A stretch of 56,052 bases of DNA from a virus. A program made the position numbers and the translations under genes. The notes under the pieces were generated by a model, which searched no databases, was not told the DNA's origin, and saw nothing but the letters and a program-made list of their open reading frames with translations. The DNA lies in the IMG/VR virus record IMGVR_UViG_3300032157_000011, positions 1 through 56,052 of that record; one strand, written 5' to 3'. Shown here one piece after another: positions 1,932 to 51,352 of this stretch (position 1 is the stretch's first letter; every line of letters starts with the position of its first letter).

Positions 1932-1942
1932 ACGTCAAATGA
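1932..1942 (+). promoter_or_regulatory. Start box ACGTCAAATGA (exact)
   Basis: Begins 1 nt after upstream TGA; its ATG 1939 opens a 27-codon ORF ending 3 nt before helicase ATG 2026. Confidence 0.65.
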
Positions 1943-2025
1943 CGATCTTGGAATGGCTGCGGCGCTCGCACGATGTGTGGGCGCCCTTCCGCCGGGTGTG
2001 GCGCGCGTTGCGTCGTCGGTAAGCA

Positions 2026-3825
2026 ATGAGTCGAATCCGCCAACTTCCACGCCGCGATTGGACGACGGACGCGGACGCCGTCGTGCGCGAAATGACTAAT
2101 CTGTGCCGTACGCCCAACGGCACAATGGTCCTTCGCCCGATCCAGGCGATCACGCTTCTCGAAGCCACGGAAGTTGGCGGAGTGCTCGCCAACGTGCGCA
2201 CCGGCGGCGGCAAGACGATCACGAGCGGACTTCTACCGTACGTGCTTCGCGCCGAGCGGCCCTTGTTGTTCGTGCCCGCCAACCTGCGCGCGAAGACGCA
2301 ACGTGAGTTCCAAACCCTTCGCCAGCACTGGCGCATCCCGAAGAACCTGCGGATCGAATCCTACGAAAAACTAGGCCAATCCCAGCATGAAAGCATGCTG
2401 ATTGACTATCGCCCCGACGTCGTGATCGGTGACGAAGCCCACGCCCTCAAGCGCGTTATGGACTCGGCCCGCGCGCGCCGCGTGGCCAGGTTCGCGAAGT
2501 ACTTCCCCGAAACCAAGTTCTGTTGGATGACTGGCACGCTGGGCGACGTGGACGAGTTCGCGCACCTGTTGATCTGGTCGTTGGGTGAGGGCGCGCCGGT
2601 GCCACTCGAGCCCGACGAGATCGCGATCTGGGCGAAGATCCTCAATGTGAACGTGCGGGACGAAGAGCGAGCCGACCCCGAGATCCTTGTCCCTCACCTT
2701 GGCCCGGAGGCCTTGGACTACCCGCGCACGGCGTTCCGCGAACGGCTGAGCCAAACCCCCGGCGTCATCATTTCCGTGGACACCTTCGACGGCTGCAACT
2801 TGGTCGTCCGCCCGCGCTACGTCGAGCCCCCGGAGAACGTGGACGCGGCGTTCGCGGACCTGCGGCAAACCCTCACGTTGCCCGACGGCTGGATGTTGGC
2901 CGACGCTGCGCTCGAGGGCTGGGCGGCTGCGCGTAAGTTGGGTTGTGGGCTCTACTCGATTCACGATCCACGCCCGCCGCAACCGTTCCGCGACATTCGA
3001 AAGCAGTACTGCCGACTCGTCCGCGGCATCATTGAAAACTCAGAGCGCTACGACACCGAGCTACAAGTCCGCGTTGCGCTGGCTAACGGCGAGCTCTGGT
3101 CCCCGCCGTACTACCCGAGCACCGAACCTTGGCCGCTGCCCGACTCGACGTTGCTTCACGCGCAGAGCGAGAAGATCGCACTAGTTCGAAACTCCGAGGC
3201 CGGCGACTTGCTCGGGATCCCGTTGTTCGAAGCCTGGCAACGTATCGAGCCGACGTACTCACCCGAAATCACGCCGTGTTGGATCTCGGACCACGTGGTA
3301 AATGACGCCATTGCGTGGGGCCGCGGGACGGCCGCGCAGGGCGGGATCATTTGGGTCGACACCATTGCACTAGCGGAGCGGATCGCAGAGCGCACGGGGT
3401 GGCCGTACTTCCACAACATGGGACGCGACGAACGCGGGCGTTTCATCGAAGACAAGTCCGTGGCCGGGCGGGAGACGATCATCGCCTCGGTTGACTCGAA
3501 CAAGCAAGGCCGCAACCTCCAACACAAGTGGCACCGCAACTTGATCGTGGAGCCCATGAACTCGGGCGAAGAGTGGGAGCAATTGGTCTCACGCACGCAC
3601 CGCGACGGCCAGGTGAGGGACACGGTTTTCGTGGACTACGTGGTCTCTTGCTACGAGTTTTACAACTCGATTTACAAGGCGCACAACGACAACCAAGCCG
3701 AGCACCAAACAGTCGGACAGAACTTCCGCCTGCTCAACGGTGACGTGCTTATGCCTTCGCTTGTCGGTCGTAAAGGCCGTTGGGCTTGGCAGAGGAGCGA
3801 CAAGAAGAACAAGGTGGAGATCTGA
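2026..3825 (+). CDS. SNF2/DEAD-like superfamily 2 helicase
   Basis: Motif I RTGGGKT, motif II VIGDEAHALK, C-terminal helicase lobe IIASVDSNKQGRNLQ; 599 aa. Confidence 0.8.
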   Translation: MSRIRQLPRRDWTTDADAVVREMTNLCRTPNGTMVLRPIQAITLLEATEVGGVLANVRTGGGKTITSGLLPYVLRAERPLLFVPANLRAKTQREFQTLRQHWRIPKNLRIESYEKLGQSQHESMLIDYRPDVVIGDEAHALKRVMDSARARRVARFAKYFPETKFCWMTGTLGDVDEFAHLLIWSLGEGAPVPLEPDEIAIWAKILNVNVRDEERADPEILVPHLGPEALDYPRTAFRERLSQTPGVIISVDTFDGCNLVVRPRYVEPPENVDAAFADLRQTLTLPDGWMLADAALEGWAAARKLGCGLYSIHDPRPPQPFRDIRKQYCRLVRGIIENSERYDTELQVRVALANGELWSPPYYPSTEPWPLPDSTLLHAQSEKIALVRNSEAGDLLGIPLFEAWQRIEPTYSPEITPCWISDHVVNDAIAWGRGTAAQGGIIWVDTIALAERIAERTGWPYFHNMGRDERGRFIEDKSVAGRETIIASVDSNKQGRNLQHKWHRNLIVEPMNSGEEWEQLVSRTHRDGQVRDTVFVDYVVSCYEFYNSIYKAHNDNQAEHQTVGQNFRLLNGDVLMPSLVGRKGRWAWQRSDKKNKVEI

Positions 3826-3827
3826 AA

Positions 3828-3838
3828 ATGTCAAATGA
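3828..3838 (+). promoter_or_regulatory. Start box variant ATGTCAAATGA
   Basis: The first ATG (3828) is the gene start, MSNEEL. Confidence 0.6.
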
Positions 3839-4409
3839 AGAATTGTACGTCCCGGCCGTGGGCGAGCGCGTTGAGATCGTTTGGCTGCACCCTGGCGACA
3901 TGAACCCGAGCCACGGAGTTGGTGACGTTGTTACTGTCAATTCGGTTGCGGAATACAACGACTCAAGCGATGGCCCACACCTGTGGATCTACGCTACCGA
4001 GAATACAGGCTGTGGTGTTCTTTGCCGCGTCCGTCCCGCCGTCGAAGCCGAGTCCGCGGAGGATTGGGCCCGCTCGCGCTCGGCGTGCGCCGCGCCACTC
4101 GTTGCGCCGGACACGATCCCCGCGCCGCCGCCGGACGCGGACGACTCACCCGAAGTCGCCGCCCTGATGACCCGAGTGAACGAGATCGGATTCGAGGTTA
4201 CCGCGGAGCTCGTGTCCGCGCTCGAAGCGTTCCCGCCCTTCCACACCGCGCACGAAGGCTACGCCGTCATCTTGGAAGAGCTCGACGAACTTTGGGACGA
4301 GATCAAGAAGAAGCAAAGCTTGCGCGACCCTGCGCGCCTTCGCAAGGAGGCCGTCCAGGTGGCAGCCATGGCCATCCGTTTCGCGTTGGAATGCGACGGG
4401 TCCAAGTGA
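3828..4409 (+). CDS. Two-domain protein with putative C-terminal MazG-like all-alpha NTP pyrophosphohydrolase domain
   Basis: HEGYAVILEELDELWDEIKK acidic helix as in MazG-type enzymes (from memory, needs HMM search); start ATG sits in box variant AAAATGTCAAATGA 3 nt after upstream TGA. Confidence 0.5.
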   Translation: MSNEELYVPAVGERVEIVWLHPGDMNPSHGVGDVVTVNSVAEYNDSSDGPHLWIYATENTGCGVLCRVRPAVEAESAEDWARSRSACAAPLVAPDTIPAPPPDADDSPEVAALMTRVNEIGFEVTAELVSALEAFPPFHTAHEGYAVILEELDELWDEIKKKQSLRDPARLRKEAVQVAAMAIRFALECDGSK

Positions 4410-50388: not shown

Positions 50389-51293
50389 TCGTGGAGTCCG
50401 GCAACGTAGACAACGAGTATCGGCTGTGGTGCGCGCGTCGTGACCTGAAGAGTCCGGACCGCGATCGGCGCGCGCGCGCGTTGCGCTTGATCGACCACCT
50501 GGCGAACGAAGAGACGCGCCAATGTTGGGTGCCAGGTCTTGGGCGTTCGCCGGGTCGCGCGGGCATTGCGTCCAACAATCCCAAGTCGTTGGCGCCGAGC
50601 ACTTCGCTACTTGCCTGGTACTGGTCAGAGCGAGGCATTACACAGTCAGGCGGAGTAGTCGATCAATGGGACGATCTGTCCGGTAACAGCCGGCACCTAA
50701 CTGCAACGAGCACAGCTCGGCCGGCCTATGAGGCTACCGGATTTGTAGGTCGGCCGAGCGTGCTTTTCAACGGCACCACGAACGTATTGAAGAACGTCAG
50801 CGGCGCGGCAACCGCCATCTTTGGAGGGAATGATCAACCCTTCGCCTGCTACTTGGTTTTTGAGGCGTTGGCGCTTAGCCCATATGTTGGATTCGTGAAC
50901 TGCAGCAGCAGCACTGACGGATCCACTTATATGTTGCTGTGGTCCAGTGCCACCAACCTCACAACCCTCCGACAAGGGGGCGATGCGCAAACGCTAGTGA
51001 CCGGATCGGCGTTGTCAGCCAATACTAAGTATGTCGTTCGCTGGTTCTATTCAGGCACAGCAACGACAACGCAAGTCAATAGCGGCAGCGTGTCTGGGCC
51101 CGGAGCTCAAAACAACGTGGCTTTGGTCGCGGACGTTTTTTCGTTGGGTGGTTGGGTTTCGAATGTCGGCACCCAAAACTACGCGAATATGAGAATTTCC
51201 AATCTGTTCTTTTACGCCGTACAGCCAACCGCCGCCGAAGACGCGCGAATCGCCGCCTACCTCTTCAACCTTTACGGGATCGCCAACGGGTGA
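50385..51293 (+). CDS. Concanavalin A/LamG-like lectin-fold tail protein
   Basis: LLAWYWSERGITQSGGVVDQWDDLSGNSRHL...PSVLFNG pattern typical of LamG-type domains; GTGA overlap start. Confidence 0.5.
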   Translation: MIVESGNVDNEYRLWCARRDLKSPDRDRRARALRLIDHLANEETRQCWVPGLGRSPGRAGIASNNPKSLAPSTSLLAWYWSERGITQSGGVVDQWDDLSGNSRHLTATSTARPAYEATGFVGRPSVLFNGTTNVLKNVSGAATAIFGGNDQPFACYLVFEALALSPYVGFVNCSSSTDGSTYMLLWSSATNLTTLRQGGDAQTLVTGSALSANTKYVVRWFYSGTATTTQVNSGSVSGPGAQNNVALVADVFSLGGWVSNVGTQNYANMRISNLFFYAVQPTAAEDARIAAYLFNLYGIANG

Positions 51294-51309
51294 CCCGTCA
51301 GCAGAACTT

Positions 51310-51338
51310 TTGATCGCGCCCGGCTAAATCCGTAGGGT
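51310..51338 (+). promoter_or_regulatory. Sigma70-like promoter TTGATC-17 nt-TAGGGT, 10 nt before box ATG 51349
   Basis: CCGTAGGGTGGAACGTCAAATGA differs at one base from 17618-17640. Confidence 0.4.
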
Positions 51339-51341
51339 GGA

Positions 51342-51352
51342 ACGTCAAATGA
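51342..51352 (+). promoter_or_regulatory. Start box ACGTCAAATGA (exact)
   Basis: ATG 51349 is the gene start, MKNILL. Confidence 0.7.

What the first reader, a model, noticed from the sequence alone, without database searches (positions are those of the whole stretch)
1932..51352. Genome-wide 11-nt start box ACGTCAAATGA with a start codon and a stop codon built into it
There are at least 13 exact copies: 1932, 8702, 11320, 12893, 17630, 26696, 27102, 36656, 37712, 42192 and 51342 on +, and 32365 and 34603 on -. There are at least 9 one-mismatch copies: 3828, 9760, 11191, 15656, 20510 and 26883 on +, and 32075, 32799 and 8626 on -. One given 11-mer is expected about 0.03 times on both strands of 56 kb (112,104/4^11), and this word is AT-rich in GC-rich DNA. 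21 of 22 copies point the same way as the local genes. The flanks are biased too (GAAA upstream; A/C-G-A/T downstream). The embedded ATG is either the best start of a real gene (9767, 11327, 17637, 26703, 51349, 32078-, 32802-), an in-frame internal start (36663), or the start of a 3-27 codon mini-ORF ending at or just before the next gene. The embedded TGA also terminates the upstream gene at 9770, 11201, 27112 and 32075(-), which forces C-termini such as ENVK. Shine-Dalgarno sequences are absent at these sites. I do not recognise this word from any described phage or bacterial signal. Candidate roles: an SD-independent initiation or termination-reinitiation signal, the start region of a phage-specific promoter class, or an RNA-processing site that makes leaderless mRNAs.
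Basis: seen in the sequence. Interest (0 to 1): 0.85.

Follow-up and report, generated by a model that had tools for sequence, protein, structure and literature searches.

The report
Phage start box with built-in ATG
An uncultivated temperate phage marks about two dozen gene junctions with one near-identical 13-19 base word whose own ATG serves as a start codon without a normal ribosome-binding site; this looks like a new variant of the unexplained "start-associated sequences" of mycobacteriophages.

Summary
ACGTCAAATGA occurs 13 times exactly and 10 times with one mismatch in a 55.9-kb circular phage genome (0.01 and 0.8 expected). 21 of 23 copies are co-oriented with the genes. The full motif is 19 nt (AA-ACGTCAAATGA-MGAWNT).

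Its closest relative, from another metagenome, keeps the box at 11 orthologous junctions at 98% identity, while the flanks are 46-65% identical.

The embedded ATG behaves as a genuine start codon:
- It starts at least 10 genes, including five called independently in the relative.
- It marks the conserved internal Met of the scaffold-like gene, where more distant relatives carry SD-like sequences instead.
- Elsewhere it opens short uORFs that end at -4 to +15 nt from the next start (15 of 18 cases against a 24% background). One uORF peptide is conserved through synonymous changes.

Nine sigma70-like promoters with near-leaderless geometry were found separately, so the box is unlikely to be the promoter class. 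A hairpin model is not supported.

Best reading (about 0.5): an SD-independent translation start and re-start cassette read by an unknown specific factor. Rivals are a cleavage or transcription-start site making leaderless mRNAs, a stoperator-like DNA site, and a translational operator. The closest known analogue is the Cluster K SAS, but the box is not a member.

The parts
1932..1942 (+). Exact box directly after the TGA stop of 663-1931. Its ATG at 1939 opens a 27-codon uORF (1939-2022).
   Evidence: The uORF ends 3 nt before the helicase ATG at 2026. L012 has the same box (5154) with a 49-codon uORF that abuts a TTG helicase start. The first 11 residues, MT(I/L)LEWLRRSH, are conserved through synonymous changes.
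3828..3838 (+). One-mismatch variant ATGTCAAATGA. The FIRST ATG (3828) is the start of gene 3828-4409 (MSNEEL...).
   Evidence: The orthologous L012 gene is called from the same ATG, at 7105. The upstream stop lies 2 nt before it.
8626..8636 (-). Reverse-oriented one-mismatch copy in the spacer after the DNA polymerase gene.
   Evidence: The position is conserved in L012 with 2 mismatches. It can pair with the 8702 box in the predicted fold of the window RNA, but not in L012.
8702..8712 (+). Exact box. Its ATG at 8709 opens a 22-codon ORF whose stop overlaps the GTG at 8774 (GTGA).
   Evidence: In L012 the same box ATG is the called start of a single 213-aa gene.
9760..9770 (+). One-mismatch box. 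The ATG at 9767 starts an 84-aa gene, and the TGA stops gene 9582-9770 (...ENVK).
   Evidence: The L012 ortholog is called from its box ATG at 13241.
11191..11201 (+). One-mismatch box. The ATG at 11198 starts a 36-aa membrane-like ORF, and the TGA stops the 10269-11201 gene.
   Evidence: This small gene is absent in L012 and is flanked by two boxes.
11320..11330 (+). Exact box. The ATG at 11327 starts a 105-aa gene.
   Evidence: It is the first start codon of the ORF. It aligns residue 1 to residue 1 with L012 14175, which is called from its own box ATG.
12893..12903 (+). Exact box inside the last 17 codons of gene 12564-12944, in frame, 41 nt before the GTG start at 12941.
   Evidence: The same arrangement occurs in L012 at 15755.
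15122..15132 (+). Degenerate copy TGATCAAATGA. The ATG at 15129 is the true start of the 15129-15641 gene, and the TGA stops 14590-15132.
   Evidence: The N-terminus aligns with L012 18312, which starts at an exact box.
15656..15666 (+). One-mismatch variant ATGTCAAATGA. The first ATG starts gene 15656-15862 (MSNDEL...).
   Evidence: The L012 ortholog is called from the same ATG, at 18830.
17630..17640 (+). Exact box. The ATG at 17637 starts the HslV-like peptidase gene (17637-18158).
   Evidence: It is preceded by TTGGAG-17 nt-TAGGGT, with the ATG 10 nt after the -10 element. The promoter and box are conserved in L012 in front of an unrelated gene.
20510..20520 (+). One-mismatch copy. The ATG at 20517 is in frame, 5 codons into gene 20502-20795.
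   Evidence: Three in-frame ATGs lie here, so the start is ambiguous.
25741..25751 (+). Possible weak member ACGGCAAGTGA. The GTG at 25748 is a gene start and the TGA is the stop of 24963-25751.
   Evidence: It has two mismatches and could be an ordinary GTGA junction.
26318..26328 (+). Degenerate copy AAATCAAATGA. Its uORF MTF* (26325-26336) ends 10 nt before the ATG at 26347.
26696..26706 (+). Exact box. The ATG at 26703 starts a 73-aa ORF (26703-26924).
   Evidence: The coding score is positive in this frame.
26883..26893 (+). ATGTCAAATGA variant near the 3' end of 26703-26924. The first ATG is in frame (..KMSNEEI..). The second ATG gives MKK*.
27102..27112 (+). Exact box. The TGA stops 26930-27112 (...ENVK) and the ATG at 27109 opens a 14-codon ORF.
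   Evidence: The gene model downstream is uncertain.
32075..32085 (-). One-mismatch box. The ATG at 32078 starts the 362-aa gene 30990-32078, and the TGA stops 32075-32242.
32366..32376 (-). Exact box of unclear use. Its ATG at 32369 is in frame with the 32078 start, 97 codons upstream.
   Evidence: The coding score of the intervening frame is negative. The region is repetitive.
32799..32809 (-). One-mismatch box. The ATG at 32802 starts ORF 32257-32802, downstream of the iteron array.
34603..34613 (-). Exact box directly after the TAA stop of 34614-35015. Its 20-codon uORF (34606-34544) ends in an ATGA overlap with the gene that starts at 34547.
   Evidence: The uORF runs across an early-type promoter.
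36656..36666 (+). Exact box inside the DUF2213 (scaffold/protease-like) gene. The ATG at 36663 is an in-frame internal Met and would give a 186-aa C-terminal product.
   Evidence: The Met is conserved (MK[IF]) in all six relatives. L001 has the box there. L004, L005 and L007 have SD-like GAAAGG, GGAG and AAGGA there instead.
37712..37722 (+). Exact box directly after the TGA stop of the cement-protein gene. Its uORF MKFP* (37719-37733) ends 15 nt before the major capsid ATG at 37749.
   Evidence: In L001 the word is ACGTCACTTGA, with a TTG uORF LKFS* and the same stop position. In L004-6, TTG uORFs end at +1, 0 and -4 from the capsid ATG.
40715..40725 (-). Reverse-oriented copy ACGTCAAACGA (no ATG), antisense inside the tail-terminator gene.
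   Evidence: L001 has an exact copy at the orthologous place, 5177(-). Its function is unknown.
42192..42202 (+). Exact box after the sheath gene. Its uORF MKF* (42199-42210) ends 13 nt before the tail-tube ATG at 42224.
   Evidence: L001 has the same box and the same uORF with a synonymous TTT to TTC change. The L005 TTG uORF ends in an ATGA overlap with the tube start.
51342..51352 (+). Exact box. The ATG at 51349 starts an 84-aa membrane-like protein gene.
   Evidence: It is preceded by TTGATC-17 nt-TAGGGT, with the ATG 10 nt after the -10 element. The coding score is strongly positive.
53056..53066 (+). Possible weak member ACATCGAATGA. The ATG at 53063 is a gene start and the TGA stops 52464-53066.
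   Evidence: It has two mismatches and may be an ordinary ATGA junction.
13910..13920 (+). Variant GCGTCAAGTGA in the divergent promoter region. Its GTG opens the ORF that leads into gene 13938-14405.
   Evidence: The identical word occurs at the same place in L012 (16820). Its reverse strand supplies the TTGACG -35 element of the predicted promoter of 13309-13860(-).

Best explanation
The box is an RNA-level translation start module. Its ATG is a real initiation codon that does not depend on a canonical Shine-Dalgarno sequence. The phage uses the same cassette in three ways.

(a) As the start of a gene. Often the box's TGA, or a stop just before the box, ends the preceding gene, so terminating ribosomes can restart.

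(b) As the start of a 3-27 codon uORF whose stop lies on or just before the start of the next gene. That next gene is SD-less in the window lineage. Examples are the helicase, major capsid protein and tail tube genes. The uORF hands ribosomes on by termination-reinitiation.

(c) As an internal start that yields a nested scaffold-like product.

Shown:
- The ATG is used as a start.
- The box is conserved at orthologous junctions.
- uORF ends track the next start.

Inferred:
- The near-invariant 13-19 nt (about 28 bits) means a specific reader exists, such as a ribosomal or rRNA contact or a host or phage protein.
- The host translates leaderless or SD-less messages well.
For: 1. Enrichment and orientation: 23 copies against 0.8 expected, 21 co-oriented.

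2. Purifying selection: at 11 orthologous junctions in the nearest relative (L012/L001; DNA polymerase 80% and capsid 85% identical) the box is 98% identical. The flanks are 46-65% identical.

3. The box ATG is the start called by an independent pipeline for 5 of 7 exact copies in L012. The first ATG of both ATGTCAAATGA variants is also a called start. Protein alignments begin at these ATGs. At least 10 window copies have positive coding scores in the ATG frame.

4. uORF coupling: in 15 of 18 intergenic cases across five lineages, the ORF opened by the box ATG or TTG ends -4 to +15 nt from the next start. The background is 23.5% for other intergenic NTG triplets (binomial about 1e-7, not corrected for relatedness).
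   - The helicase uORFs differ in length (27, 49 and 5 codons) yet all end at the start. In L012 that start is TTG, directly after the uORF stop.
   - The helicase uORF N-terminus is conserved through four synonymous changes.

5. At the conserved internal Met of the DUF2213 gene, relatives carry SD-like sequences where the window lineage carries the box.

6. Position 8 of the box varies only to G or T (GTG, TTG), never to a non-start codon.

7. Transcription signals are found elsewhere. Five operator-bearing and three or four AGCAGAACTTTTGA-type sigma70-like promoters exist, all with the ATG 5-10 nt after the -10 element. This suggests a host that handles leaderless messages.

8. Ordinary genes of the lineage show a G-rich SD-like signal at -9/-8 that the box lacks, so the box is a distinct class of start.
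Against: - No experiment exists. All 5' ends and initiation events are inferred.
- No reader of the box was identified, and the host is unknown.
- A ribosome-only signal would not normally need about 28 bits.
- The capsid and tube uORFs end 13-15 nt before the main ATG. In E. coli and Haloferax, reinitiation falls steeply with distance and is nearly gone at about 20 nt (PMC10666635).
- In L004-6 a GGAG inside the TTG uORF could drive capsid translation on its own, so those uORF frames may be incidental.
- In more distant relatives the positional homologue is CAAATCAATT. Some copies sit in clean sigma70 geometry (TTGCNG-17-TACAAA), and some are conserved inside genes. That looks DNA-level or promoter-like.
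- Two reverse-oriented copies are conserved in the relative and are not explained.
- At 17630 and 51342 a transcript from the adjacent promoter would start inside the box and lack its 5' half.
Confidence: 0.5

Rival explanations
1. The box defines an mRNA 5' end. It is either the initiation region of a phage-directed promoter class or the target of a sequence-specific endoribonuclease that cuts just before AUG. Each box would then create a leaderless or near-leaderless message, and the invariant ATG exists because leaderless translation needs a 5' AUG.
For: - All nine recognisable promoters of this phage place an ATG 5-10 nt after the -10 element, so leaderless translation seems to be the norm.
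- The size, copy number, exactness and orientation of the box resemble single-subunit RNA polymerase promoters.
- In L001 a leaderless early promoter ends in ..TCAAATGACGA.
- The positional homologues in distant relatives look promoter-like at the post-terminase junction.
- The conserved junctions (after DNA polymerase, after terminase, before capsid, before tube) are typical transcription-unit boundaries.
Against: - No RNA polymerase, sigma factor or known transcription factor was found by Pfam or PHROGs over essentially all non-structural proteins.
- Nothing is conserved upstream of -2.
- A -10-type reading (CAAAT) would start RNA downstream of the ATG that at least 10 genes need.
- The ATGTCAAATGA variants use an ATG 7 nt further upstream, which a fixed start or cut site does not explain.
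- Several boxes lie inside tightly coupled ATGA junctions, where a new 5' end is not needed.
- 19 nt of specificity without structure is unusual for an RNase, and the hairpin test was negative.
Confidence: 0.2
2. The box is a DNA site for a phage regulator that acts like the stoperators of Cluster A mycobacteriophages. Those are many asymmetric sites in short intergenic spaces, oriented with transcription, where a bound repressor blocks elongation in the lysogen. On this reading the ATG and TGA are incidental, and uORF coupling is damage control.
For: - The phage is temperate: it has an integrase at 28463-29572.
- There are more than 20 oriented copies at gene junctions, which matches the description of L5 sites (PMC9283540).
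- The consensus is quasi-dyadic (CGTCA-AA-TGACG). Relatives carry the perfect palindrome GTCAATTGAC or CAAATnnATTTG.
- Two reverse-oriented copies are conserved.
- A variant overlaps the -35 element of the promoter of a conserved lone minus-strand gene.
Against: - The early promoters carry a different repeated word (GCGGTCCCCC), so the box is not the immunity operator. That is the defining link in L5.
- The symmetry is weak beyond TCA/TGA+CG. Position 14 is mostly A where symmetry needs T.
- In distant relatives the element sits only in front of the most abundant late proteins, which is an odd place for a silencer.
- Intergenic copies that are not gene starts still keep the ATG on the sense strand (8 of 10), although the reverse orientation would avoid spurious uORFs.
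- No HTH protein was detected.
Confidence: 0.15
3. The box is a translational operator. A phage RNA-binding protein, analogous to T4 RegA, binds the start regions of many messages at once and switches them off or on at a given time.
For: - The motif includes the start codon and spans about -9 to +10, the footprint expected of a start-site-binding protein.
- It is strand-specific and occurs on genes of several modules.
- Its high information content argues for a protein reader.
Against: - No candidate protein was found.
- The conserved 183-aa protein with a beta-rich C-terminal half gave an unusable model, pLDDT 40.
- The box sits before both replication genes and the most abundant late proteins, which would not normally be co-repressed.
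- RegA targets are loose consensus matches (own knowledge), unlike this near-invariant word.
Confidence: 0.1
4. The box is mainly a recombination linker. It would be a conserved boundary word that lets gene cassettes be swapped between phages, with its expression role secondary.
For: - The 36-aa gene 11198-11308 is flanked by two boxes and is absent from L012.
- After the terminase gene, L012 has an unrelated gene behind the same promoter and box.
- Small genes at 26.7-27.1 kb are each bounded by boxes.
Against: - 13-19 bp is short for homologous exchange.
- A linker does not explain the ATG invariance, the uORF coupling, the internal scaffold start or the orientation bias.
- Shuffling is a known by-product of conserved regulatory cassettes (PeSL elements of T4-type phages, own knowledge).
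Confidence: 0.05

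Closest known systems
Start-Associated Sequences (SAS) of Cluster K mycobacteriophages (Pope et al. 2011, PMC3203893; 188-genome survey 2025, PMC12699233)
   Same: - A short asymmetric word, near-identical in 11-19 copies per genome.
- One orientation, sitting at predicted translation starts and sometimes containing the upstream gene's stop.
- Strongly associated with ATG starts, rare elsewhere, and conserved across subclusters.
   Different: - SAS is GGGATAGGAGCCC. It contains the AGGAG Shine-Dalgarno core and lies 3-7 bp upstream of the start.
- The box has no SD core and contains the start codon itself plus an overlapping TGA.
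- SAS is confined to the non-structural arm and is often paired with 17-bp inverted repeats (ESAS). The box occurs in all modules, including before capsid and tube genes and inside a gene, and has no ESAS-like partner.
- The host phylum and phage lineage differ, and no sequence homology exists.
Stoperators of Cluster A mycobacteriophages (L5 gp71; PMC9283540)
   Same: More than 20 asymmetric 13-mers in short intergenic spaces, with orientation tied to the direction of transcription, in a temperate phage.
   Different: - Stoperators share their sequence with the operator of the early lytic promoter and are bound by the immunity repressor. Here the early promoters carry another word.
- Stoperators have no embedded start codon and no link to uORFs.
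Translational coupling by termination-reinitiation at ATGA or TGATG overlaps (PMC6728339, PMC10666635, PMC12548453)
   Same: The box contains ATGA. In at least 5 copies its TGA ends the upstream gene while its ATG starts the next. uORF stops overlap or abut the next start.
   Different: - Ordinary coupling needs only the 4-nt overlap, not a 13-19 nt invariant context.
- Some gaps here (10-15 nt) are longer than those that work well in the tested species.
T4 RegA translational operator sites (own knowledge)
   Same: An RNA element that includes the AUG and is shared by many phage messages.
   Different: RegA sites are degenerate A/U-rich matches and act in repression. The box is nearly invariant and sits on genes expected to be highly expressed.
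Leaderless mRNAs, and MazF-type generation of leaderless mRNAs (review PMC9031893; MazF from own knowledge)
   Same: A start codon used without SD. The phage's own promoters have leaderless geometry.
   Different: Most boxes are internal to operons and lack a -10 element. No nuclease is known with such a long unstructured recognition site.
PeSL regulatory cassettes of T4-type phages (own knowledge)
   Same: A conserved expression signal repeated at gene boundaries, with mosaic joints coinciding with it.
   Different: PeSL is an early promoter plus a stem-loop. The box has neither.

Membership tests
Cluster K SAS | 13-bp consensus GGGATAGGAGCCC (two or fewer deviations) | tested here: not met
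   The box is AAACGTCAAATGA with no similarity to the SAS consensus (definition in PMC3203893).
Cluster K SAS | Lies 3-7 bp upstream of the start codon and contains the AGGAG SD core | tested here: not met
   The box contains the start codon. No SD core lies in the conserved part. SD-like G-runs occur in the flank of only about 7 copies.
Cluster K SAS | Many near-identical copies, one orientation, at gene starts, conserved among related phages | tested here: met
   23 copies, 21 co-oriented. 11 junctions are conserved in L012/L001 at 98% identity.
L5-type stoperators | The same asymmetric site also forms the operator of the early lytic promoter | tested here: not met
   Five early-type promoters share GCGGTCCCCC, not the box.
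L5-type stoperators | Bound by the immunity repressor; blocks elongation in an orientation-dependent way | not testable with these tools
   No repressor was identified. This needs binding and transcription assays.
L5-type stoperators | More than 20 sites in short intergenic spaces, orientation correlated with transcription | tested here: met
Shine-Dalgarno-led start site | 4-6 nt complementary to the 16S 3' end, 5-10 nt before the start | tested here: inconclusive
   There is none within the conserved box. AGGA, GGGA, GGAG or GGGTG lies in the variable flank of about 7 of 23 copies. The host 16S is unknown.
Phage-specific (T7-like or sigma-redirected) promoter | A phage-encoded RNA polymerase or sigma-like factor | tested here: not met
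   No such hit was found in Pfam or PHROGs over the non-structural proteins and the large ORFs. Divergent unrecognisable factors cannot be excluded.
Phage-specific (T7-like or sigma-redirected) promoter | Transcripts start at a fixed position of the motif | not testable with these tools
   This needs 5'-end mapping.
Leaderless start | A -10 element about 6-8 nt upstream, so that the AUG is the 5' end | tested here: not met
   Only 17630 and 51342 have a TAGGGT, and it lies 10 nt before the ATG. 21 of 23 copies have no TAnnnT at the right place.
Termination-reinitiation coupling | The stop of the upstream ORF overlaps or lies within a few nt of the next start | tested here: met
   The box TGA ends the upstream gene at 9770, 11201, 15132, 27112 and 32075(-). 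A stop lies 2-13 nt before the box ATG at 1932, 3828, 34603, 37712 and 42192. uORF stops lie -4 to +15 nt from the next start in 15 of 18 cases.
Structured RNA operator (MS2-type hairpin) | A conserved hairpin supported by covariation | tested here: not met
   62.5% of cells pair against 61.6% in shuffles. The covariation score is reached by 57 of 500 shuffles. There is no Rfam hit.

The most novel reading that the evidence does not exclude
A dedicated, sequence-specific and SD-independent ribosome entry or re-entry element exists in a bacterial virus. It would be a 13-19 nt 'start box' read by a specific factor: a non-anti-SD rRNA contact, a phage-encoded initiation helper, or a site-specific nuclease that trims messages to leaderless form. 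The phage would deploy it genome-wide, including through obligatory mini-uORFs in front of its most abundant structural genes.
Probability: 0.3. Interest if true: 0.85.

Novelty: new variant of a known kind. Interest (0 to 1): 0.62.

Why it matters
Bacterial translation starts are usually explained by Shine-Dalgarno pairing, leaderless 5' AUGs, or unstructured A-rich regions. None of these needs a long invariant word. Genome-wide start-associated words have been known in Cluster K mycobacteriophages since 2011, yet their reader and mechanism are still unknown.

An unrelated phage lineage has now arrived at a start-linked invariant word. This one contains the start and a stop codon, replaces an SD-type site at a conserved internal start, and feeds short uORFs that abut SD-less major genes. 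That suggests a more general, unrecognised way for phages to control where ribosomes start.

It also offers a cleaner test case. Mutations in ACGTCAA can be separated from the ATG. The TTG and CAAATCAATT variants in relatives provide natural specificity swaps.

In practice, gene callers mis-place starts in such genomes. Examples here are the helicase, the gene at 15129 and the internal scaffold start.

Tried and rejected
- **RNA hairpin with the AUG in the loop.** The dyad symmetry of the consensus suggested it, and single sites fold weakly. Pair counts on 36 sites equal the shuffled controls. Rejected.
- **Known RNA families and tRNAs.** None found.
- **Literature search for the word.** Only unrelated primer and cDNA matches.
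- **Close relatives in isolate phages.** There is no megablast hit. Portal identity is 29% or less.
- **Relatives in IMG/VR.** None found by protein.
- **Relatives in GTDB genomes.** None found, so no prophage and no host name.
- **JGI metagenome scan.** It gave only four short extra contigs.
- **Cluster look-up.** It returned no names or organisms. The host remains unknown.
- **Trans-acting factor.** Pfam and PHROGs scans of concatenated small proteins found no sigma, RNAP, HTH or RNA-binding family. The Serglycin hits are artefacts of my GS linkers.
- **The conserved 183-aa minus-strand protein.** The AlphaFold2 model was unusable (pLDDT 40), so no fold search was run.
- **rRNA pairing.**
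  - AACGUCAA is complementary to E. coli 16S 479-486 (helix 18). That stretch is TGACGG in most phyla (own knowledge) and is base-paired, and the host is unknown.
  - L003-type GAUCAAAU is complementary to 16S 11-18.
  - This was kept only as a lead.
- **Generic promoter and terminator scans.** Counts were at or below shuffle level and showed no link to the box.
- **L007 'internal motif' TCAATTGACGG.** It is probably a coding coincidence of the conserved peptide GNQLT.
- **Long-range pairing of the reverse copy 8626 with the 8702 box.** It is predicted in the window but not in L012. Unresolved.

Full report
**What the window is.** The first 108 bases repeat at the end, so this is a circular assembly of about 55,944 bp with 62% G+C.

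It is a tailed phage. Pfam and PHROGs identify these genes:
- portal (20792-23053), a Mu F-like protein, and a DUF2213 scaffold/protease-like protein (36138-37223);
- cement protein, major capsid protein (37749-38678), sheath (40839-42185) and tube (42224-42670);
- tape measure and baseplate J;
- large terminase (16038-17588);
- family A DNA polymerase (6372-8585), a helicase, and a DUF5906 primase-helicase;
- a PD-(D/E)XK nuclease, NT5C, a MazZ-like pyrophosphohydrolase domain, and an RNase T-like exonuclease;
- a DNA methylase, an endolysin, and a tyrosine integrase (28463-29572).

It has no near relative among isolate phages, in IMG/VR or in GTDB genomes. The host is unknown.

**The observation.**
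- ACGTCAAATGA occurs 13 times exactly (0.01 expected) and 23 times at one mismatch or fewer (0.81 expected).
- 21 of 23 copies point with the local genes.
- A logo of the 23 sites shows the conserved block runs from -2 to +17 (AA-ACGTCAAATGA-MGAWNT, roughly 28 bits). Nothing is conserved further upstream.
- Every one of the 22 copies of the 8-mer TCAAATGA in the genome belongs to the motif. This adds degenerate copies at 15125 and 26321.
- The finding's coordinates are right, except that 32365 should be 32366. One more copy exists, at 40715(-).

**Conservation.** Capsid and polymerase homologues led to contigs of related uncultivated phages.

The nearest relative is L012 plus L001, both from one sample, with polymerase 80% and capsid 85% identical. 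It carries 10 exact and 3 one-mismatch copies in 35 kb, 11 of them at the same junctions as in the window. Anchored at the box, identity is 98% inside it and 46-65% in the flanks. The word is therefore under selection, not a recent copy-paste.

**The ATG is used.**
- In L012 an independent gene caller starts five genes exactly at box ATGs (12252, 13241, 14175, 18312, 21439). It starts two more at the first ATG of the ATGTCAAATGA variant (7105, 18830).
- Window-L012 protein alignments begin at those codons.
- One window gene that I had called from a TTG really starts at the ATG of a degenerate box, 15129. There the box TGA also ends the preceding gene.
- In the window at least ten box ATGs open frames with positive coding scores.
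- The copy inside the DUF2213 gene sits on a Met that is conserved (MK[IF]) in all six relatives. There, L004, L005 and L007 have SD-like GAAAGG, GGAG and AAGGA in the coding sequence, while the window lineage has the box.
- This is the arrangement expected for a nested scaffold gene. It shows the box occupying the functional place of an SD-type initiation site.

**Short uORFs.** Where the box ATG is not a gene start, it opens a short ORF.
- Across the window, L001, L012, L013 and L004-6, 15 of 18 such intergenic ORFs end between -4 and +15 nt of the next gene's start. The background is 23.5% for other intergenic ATG/GTG/TTG triplets in the window. The binomial value of about 1e-7 overstates independence.
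- The helicase case is the clearest. The uORFs are 27, 49 and 5 codons long in three lineages, yet each stops on or next to the helicase start. In L012 that start is a TTG directly after the uORF stop.
- The first 11 uORF residues are kept through four synonymous substitutions.
- Before the capsid gene, the TTG-initiated ORFs of L004, L005 and L006 end at +1, 0 and -4 despite indels between them.
- In the window lineage the capsid, tube and helicase starts have no SD.
- Box position 8 varies only to G or T, so it is always a start codon.

**Transcription signals are elsewhere.**
- Five promoters share the spacer word GCGGTCCCCC, a likely operator, and have an ATG 6-7 nt after the -10 element.
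- A second family, AGCAGAACTTTTGR-N17-TA(G/A)GGT, occurs three times, plus one related copy before the head genes. Its ATG lies 5-10 nt after the -10 element.
- Two of these promoters run straight into boxes (17630, 51342).
- All recognisable promoters therefore have leaderless or near-leaderless geometry. By inference, the host translates such messages well.
- The box has no -35 or -10 partner in 21 of 23 copies. No RNA polymerase or sigma factor was detected.
- Reading its CAAAT as a -10 element would start RNA beyond the ATG that the genes need.

**Other forms tested.**
- The consensus is quasi-dyadic (CGTCA-AA-TGACG). The implied hairpin has no support: 62.5% of cells pair against 61.6% in shuffles.
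- The symmetry fails at positions 14-16, so a symmetric dimer site is not favoured either.

**Complications.**
- In the L003/L013 lineage the word is GCGN-TCAAWTGAC. With A it is the start codon, preceded by strong SDs. With T it lies 9-17 nt upstream of the start.
- In the L004-6, L014, L016 and L017 lineages the repeated word is CAAATCAATT. It lies at the same junctions: after the polymerase, after the terminase, before the head operon, before capsid and before tube.
- The three post-terminase copies sit in TTGCNG-17-TACAAA geometry. Some copies are conserved inside genes with rare codons.
- The ancestral element may therefore have been a DNA-level or promoter-proximal signal at transcription-unit boundaries. 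The window lineage would then have remodelled and multiplied it into a start cassette.
- The two reverse-oriented copies (8626, 40715) are conserved in the relative and remain unexplained.

**Verdict.** The box is real and selected, and its ATG is a working start codon.

The best explanation (about 0.5) is an SD-independent translation start and re-start cassette with an unidentified specific reader. The rivals are:
- a 5'-end-forming site that yields leaderless mRNAs (0.2);
- a stoperator-like DNA site (0.15);
- a RegA-like translational operator (0.1);
- a recombination linker (0.05).

The closest known analogue is the Cluster K SAS (PMC3203893), whose mechanism is also unknown (PMC12699233). 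The box fails the sequence and position criteria of that family, so it is a new variant of that kind of signal, not a member.

Noticed in passing
window 1-108 and 55945-56052: The two ends are identical over 108 bp. The contig is a circularly closed assembly of about 55,944 bp, and the primase-helicase gene runs across the junction.
   Followed up: partly
window 32574-33121: Nine iterons of about 32 nt, with core TTGCGCTGGGGACTTGACGCAA (itself an inverted repeat), partly overlap ORF 32257-32802 with its SSPQRK repeats. This is a likely replication origin or partition site.
   Followed up: no
window 29569-29596(+); minus strand around 34541-34584, 34967-35010, 35288-35331, 35952-35995: Five sigma70-like promoters share the spacer word GCGGTCCCCC, a probable repressor operator. 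Each has an ATG 6-7 nt after the -10 element, which is leaderless geometry. The -10 regions read GCTAnnnT.
   Followed up: partly
window 17587-17626, 24119-24159, 51299-51338 (related: 35998-36040): A second promoter-like family, AGCAGAACTTTTGR-N17-TA(G/A)GGT, has an ATG 5-10 nt after the -10 element. It occurs after the terminase gene, before 24165, before the 51349 membrane-protein gene and before the head operon. These are possibly late promoters.
   Followed up: partly
window 10269-11201: This protein has the N-terminal domain of dATP/dGTP diphosphohydrolases (PF18909, MazZ-like), as in phages with 2-aminoadenine genomes. No PurZ-like adenylosuccinate synthetase hit was seen among the scanned proteins.
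   Followed up: partly
window 8709-9214 vs L012 12252-12893: The gene after the DNA polymerase is a single 213-aa ORF in the relative. In the window it is a 22-codon ORF plus a 146-aa ORF joined by a GTGA overlap next to a G-run. This may be a real split, a deletion remnant or an assembly frameshift.
   Followed up: partly
window 11191-11330; 17588-18158; L012 14168, 21432: Mosaic joints coincide with boxes. The 36-aa gene 11198-11308 is flanked by two boxes and absent in L012. The HslV-like peptidase gene after the terminase is replaced in L012 by an unrelated gene behind the same promoter and box.
   Followed up: partly
window 8626-8712: The reverse copy at 8626 and the box at 8702 form a 10-bp stem that sequesters the 8709 ATG in both the minimum-energy and centroid folds of the spacer RNA. 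The equivalent L012 spacer does not fold this way.
   Followed up: partly
window 13309-13860(-) and 13861-13937: A lone minus-strand 183-aa gene is conserved in L012, L014 and L016. Its C-terminal half is beta-rich. It has its own predicted promoter, whose -35 element (TTGACG) is the reverse strand of a box variant (13910). The AlphaFold2 single-sequence model was unusable, pLDDT 40.
   Followed up: partly
window 18996-19015: A 20-bp near-palindrome, GAAACGTCGATTGACGTTCC, related to the box, lies inside the DNA methylase gene.
   Followed up: no
L004, L005, L006 (about 1-8 kb of each locus); L007: Relatives carry their own multi-copy palindromes, GCTAGGATCCTAGC (3-4 copies) and CTAGGGCCCTAG. 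These probably play the operator role of GCGGTCCCCC in the window.
   Followed up: no
L016 4632/6021; L017 14688/16117; L014 9837 with L017 9734: CAAATCAATT occurs inside genes at orthologous codons (N-Q-F/L) using rare A/T-rich codons in 61-63% G+C genomes. This suggests selection on the nucleotide word within coding sequence.
   Followed up: no
window box positions -1 to 7 vs E. coli 16S rRNA 479-486: AACGUCAA is perfectly complementary to UUGACGUU of E. coli 16S helix 18. L003-type GAUCAAAU is complementary to 16S 11-18. The host is unknown and both rRNA stretches are normally base-paired, so this is only a lead.
   Followed up: partly
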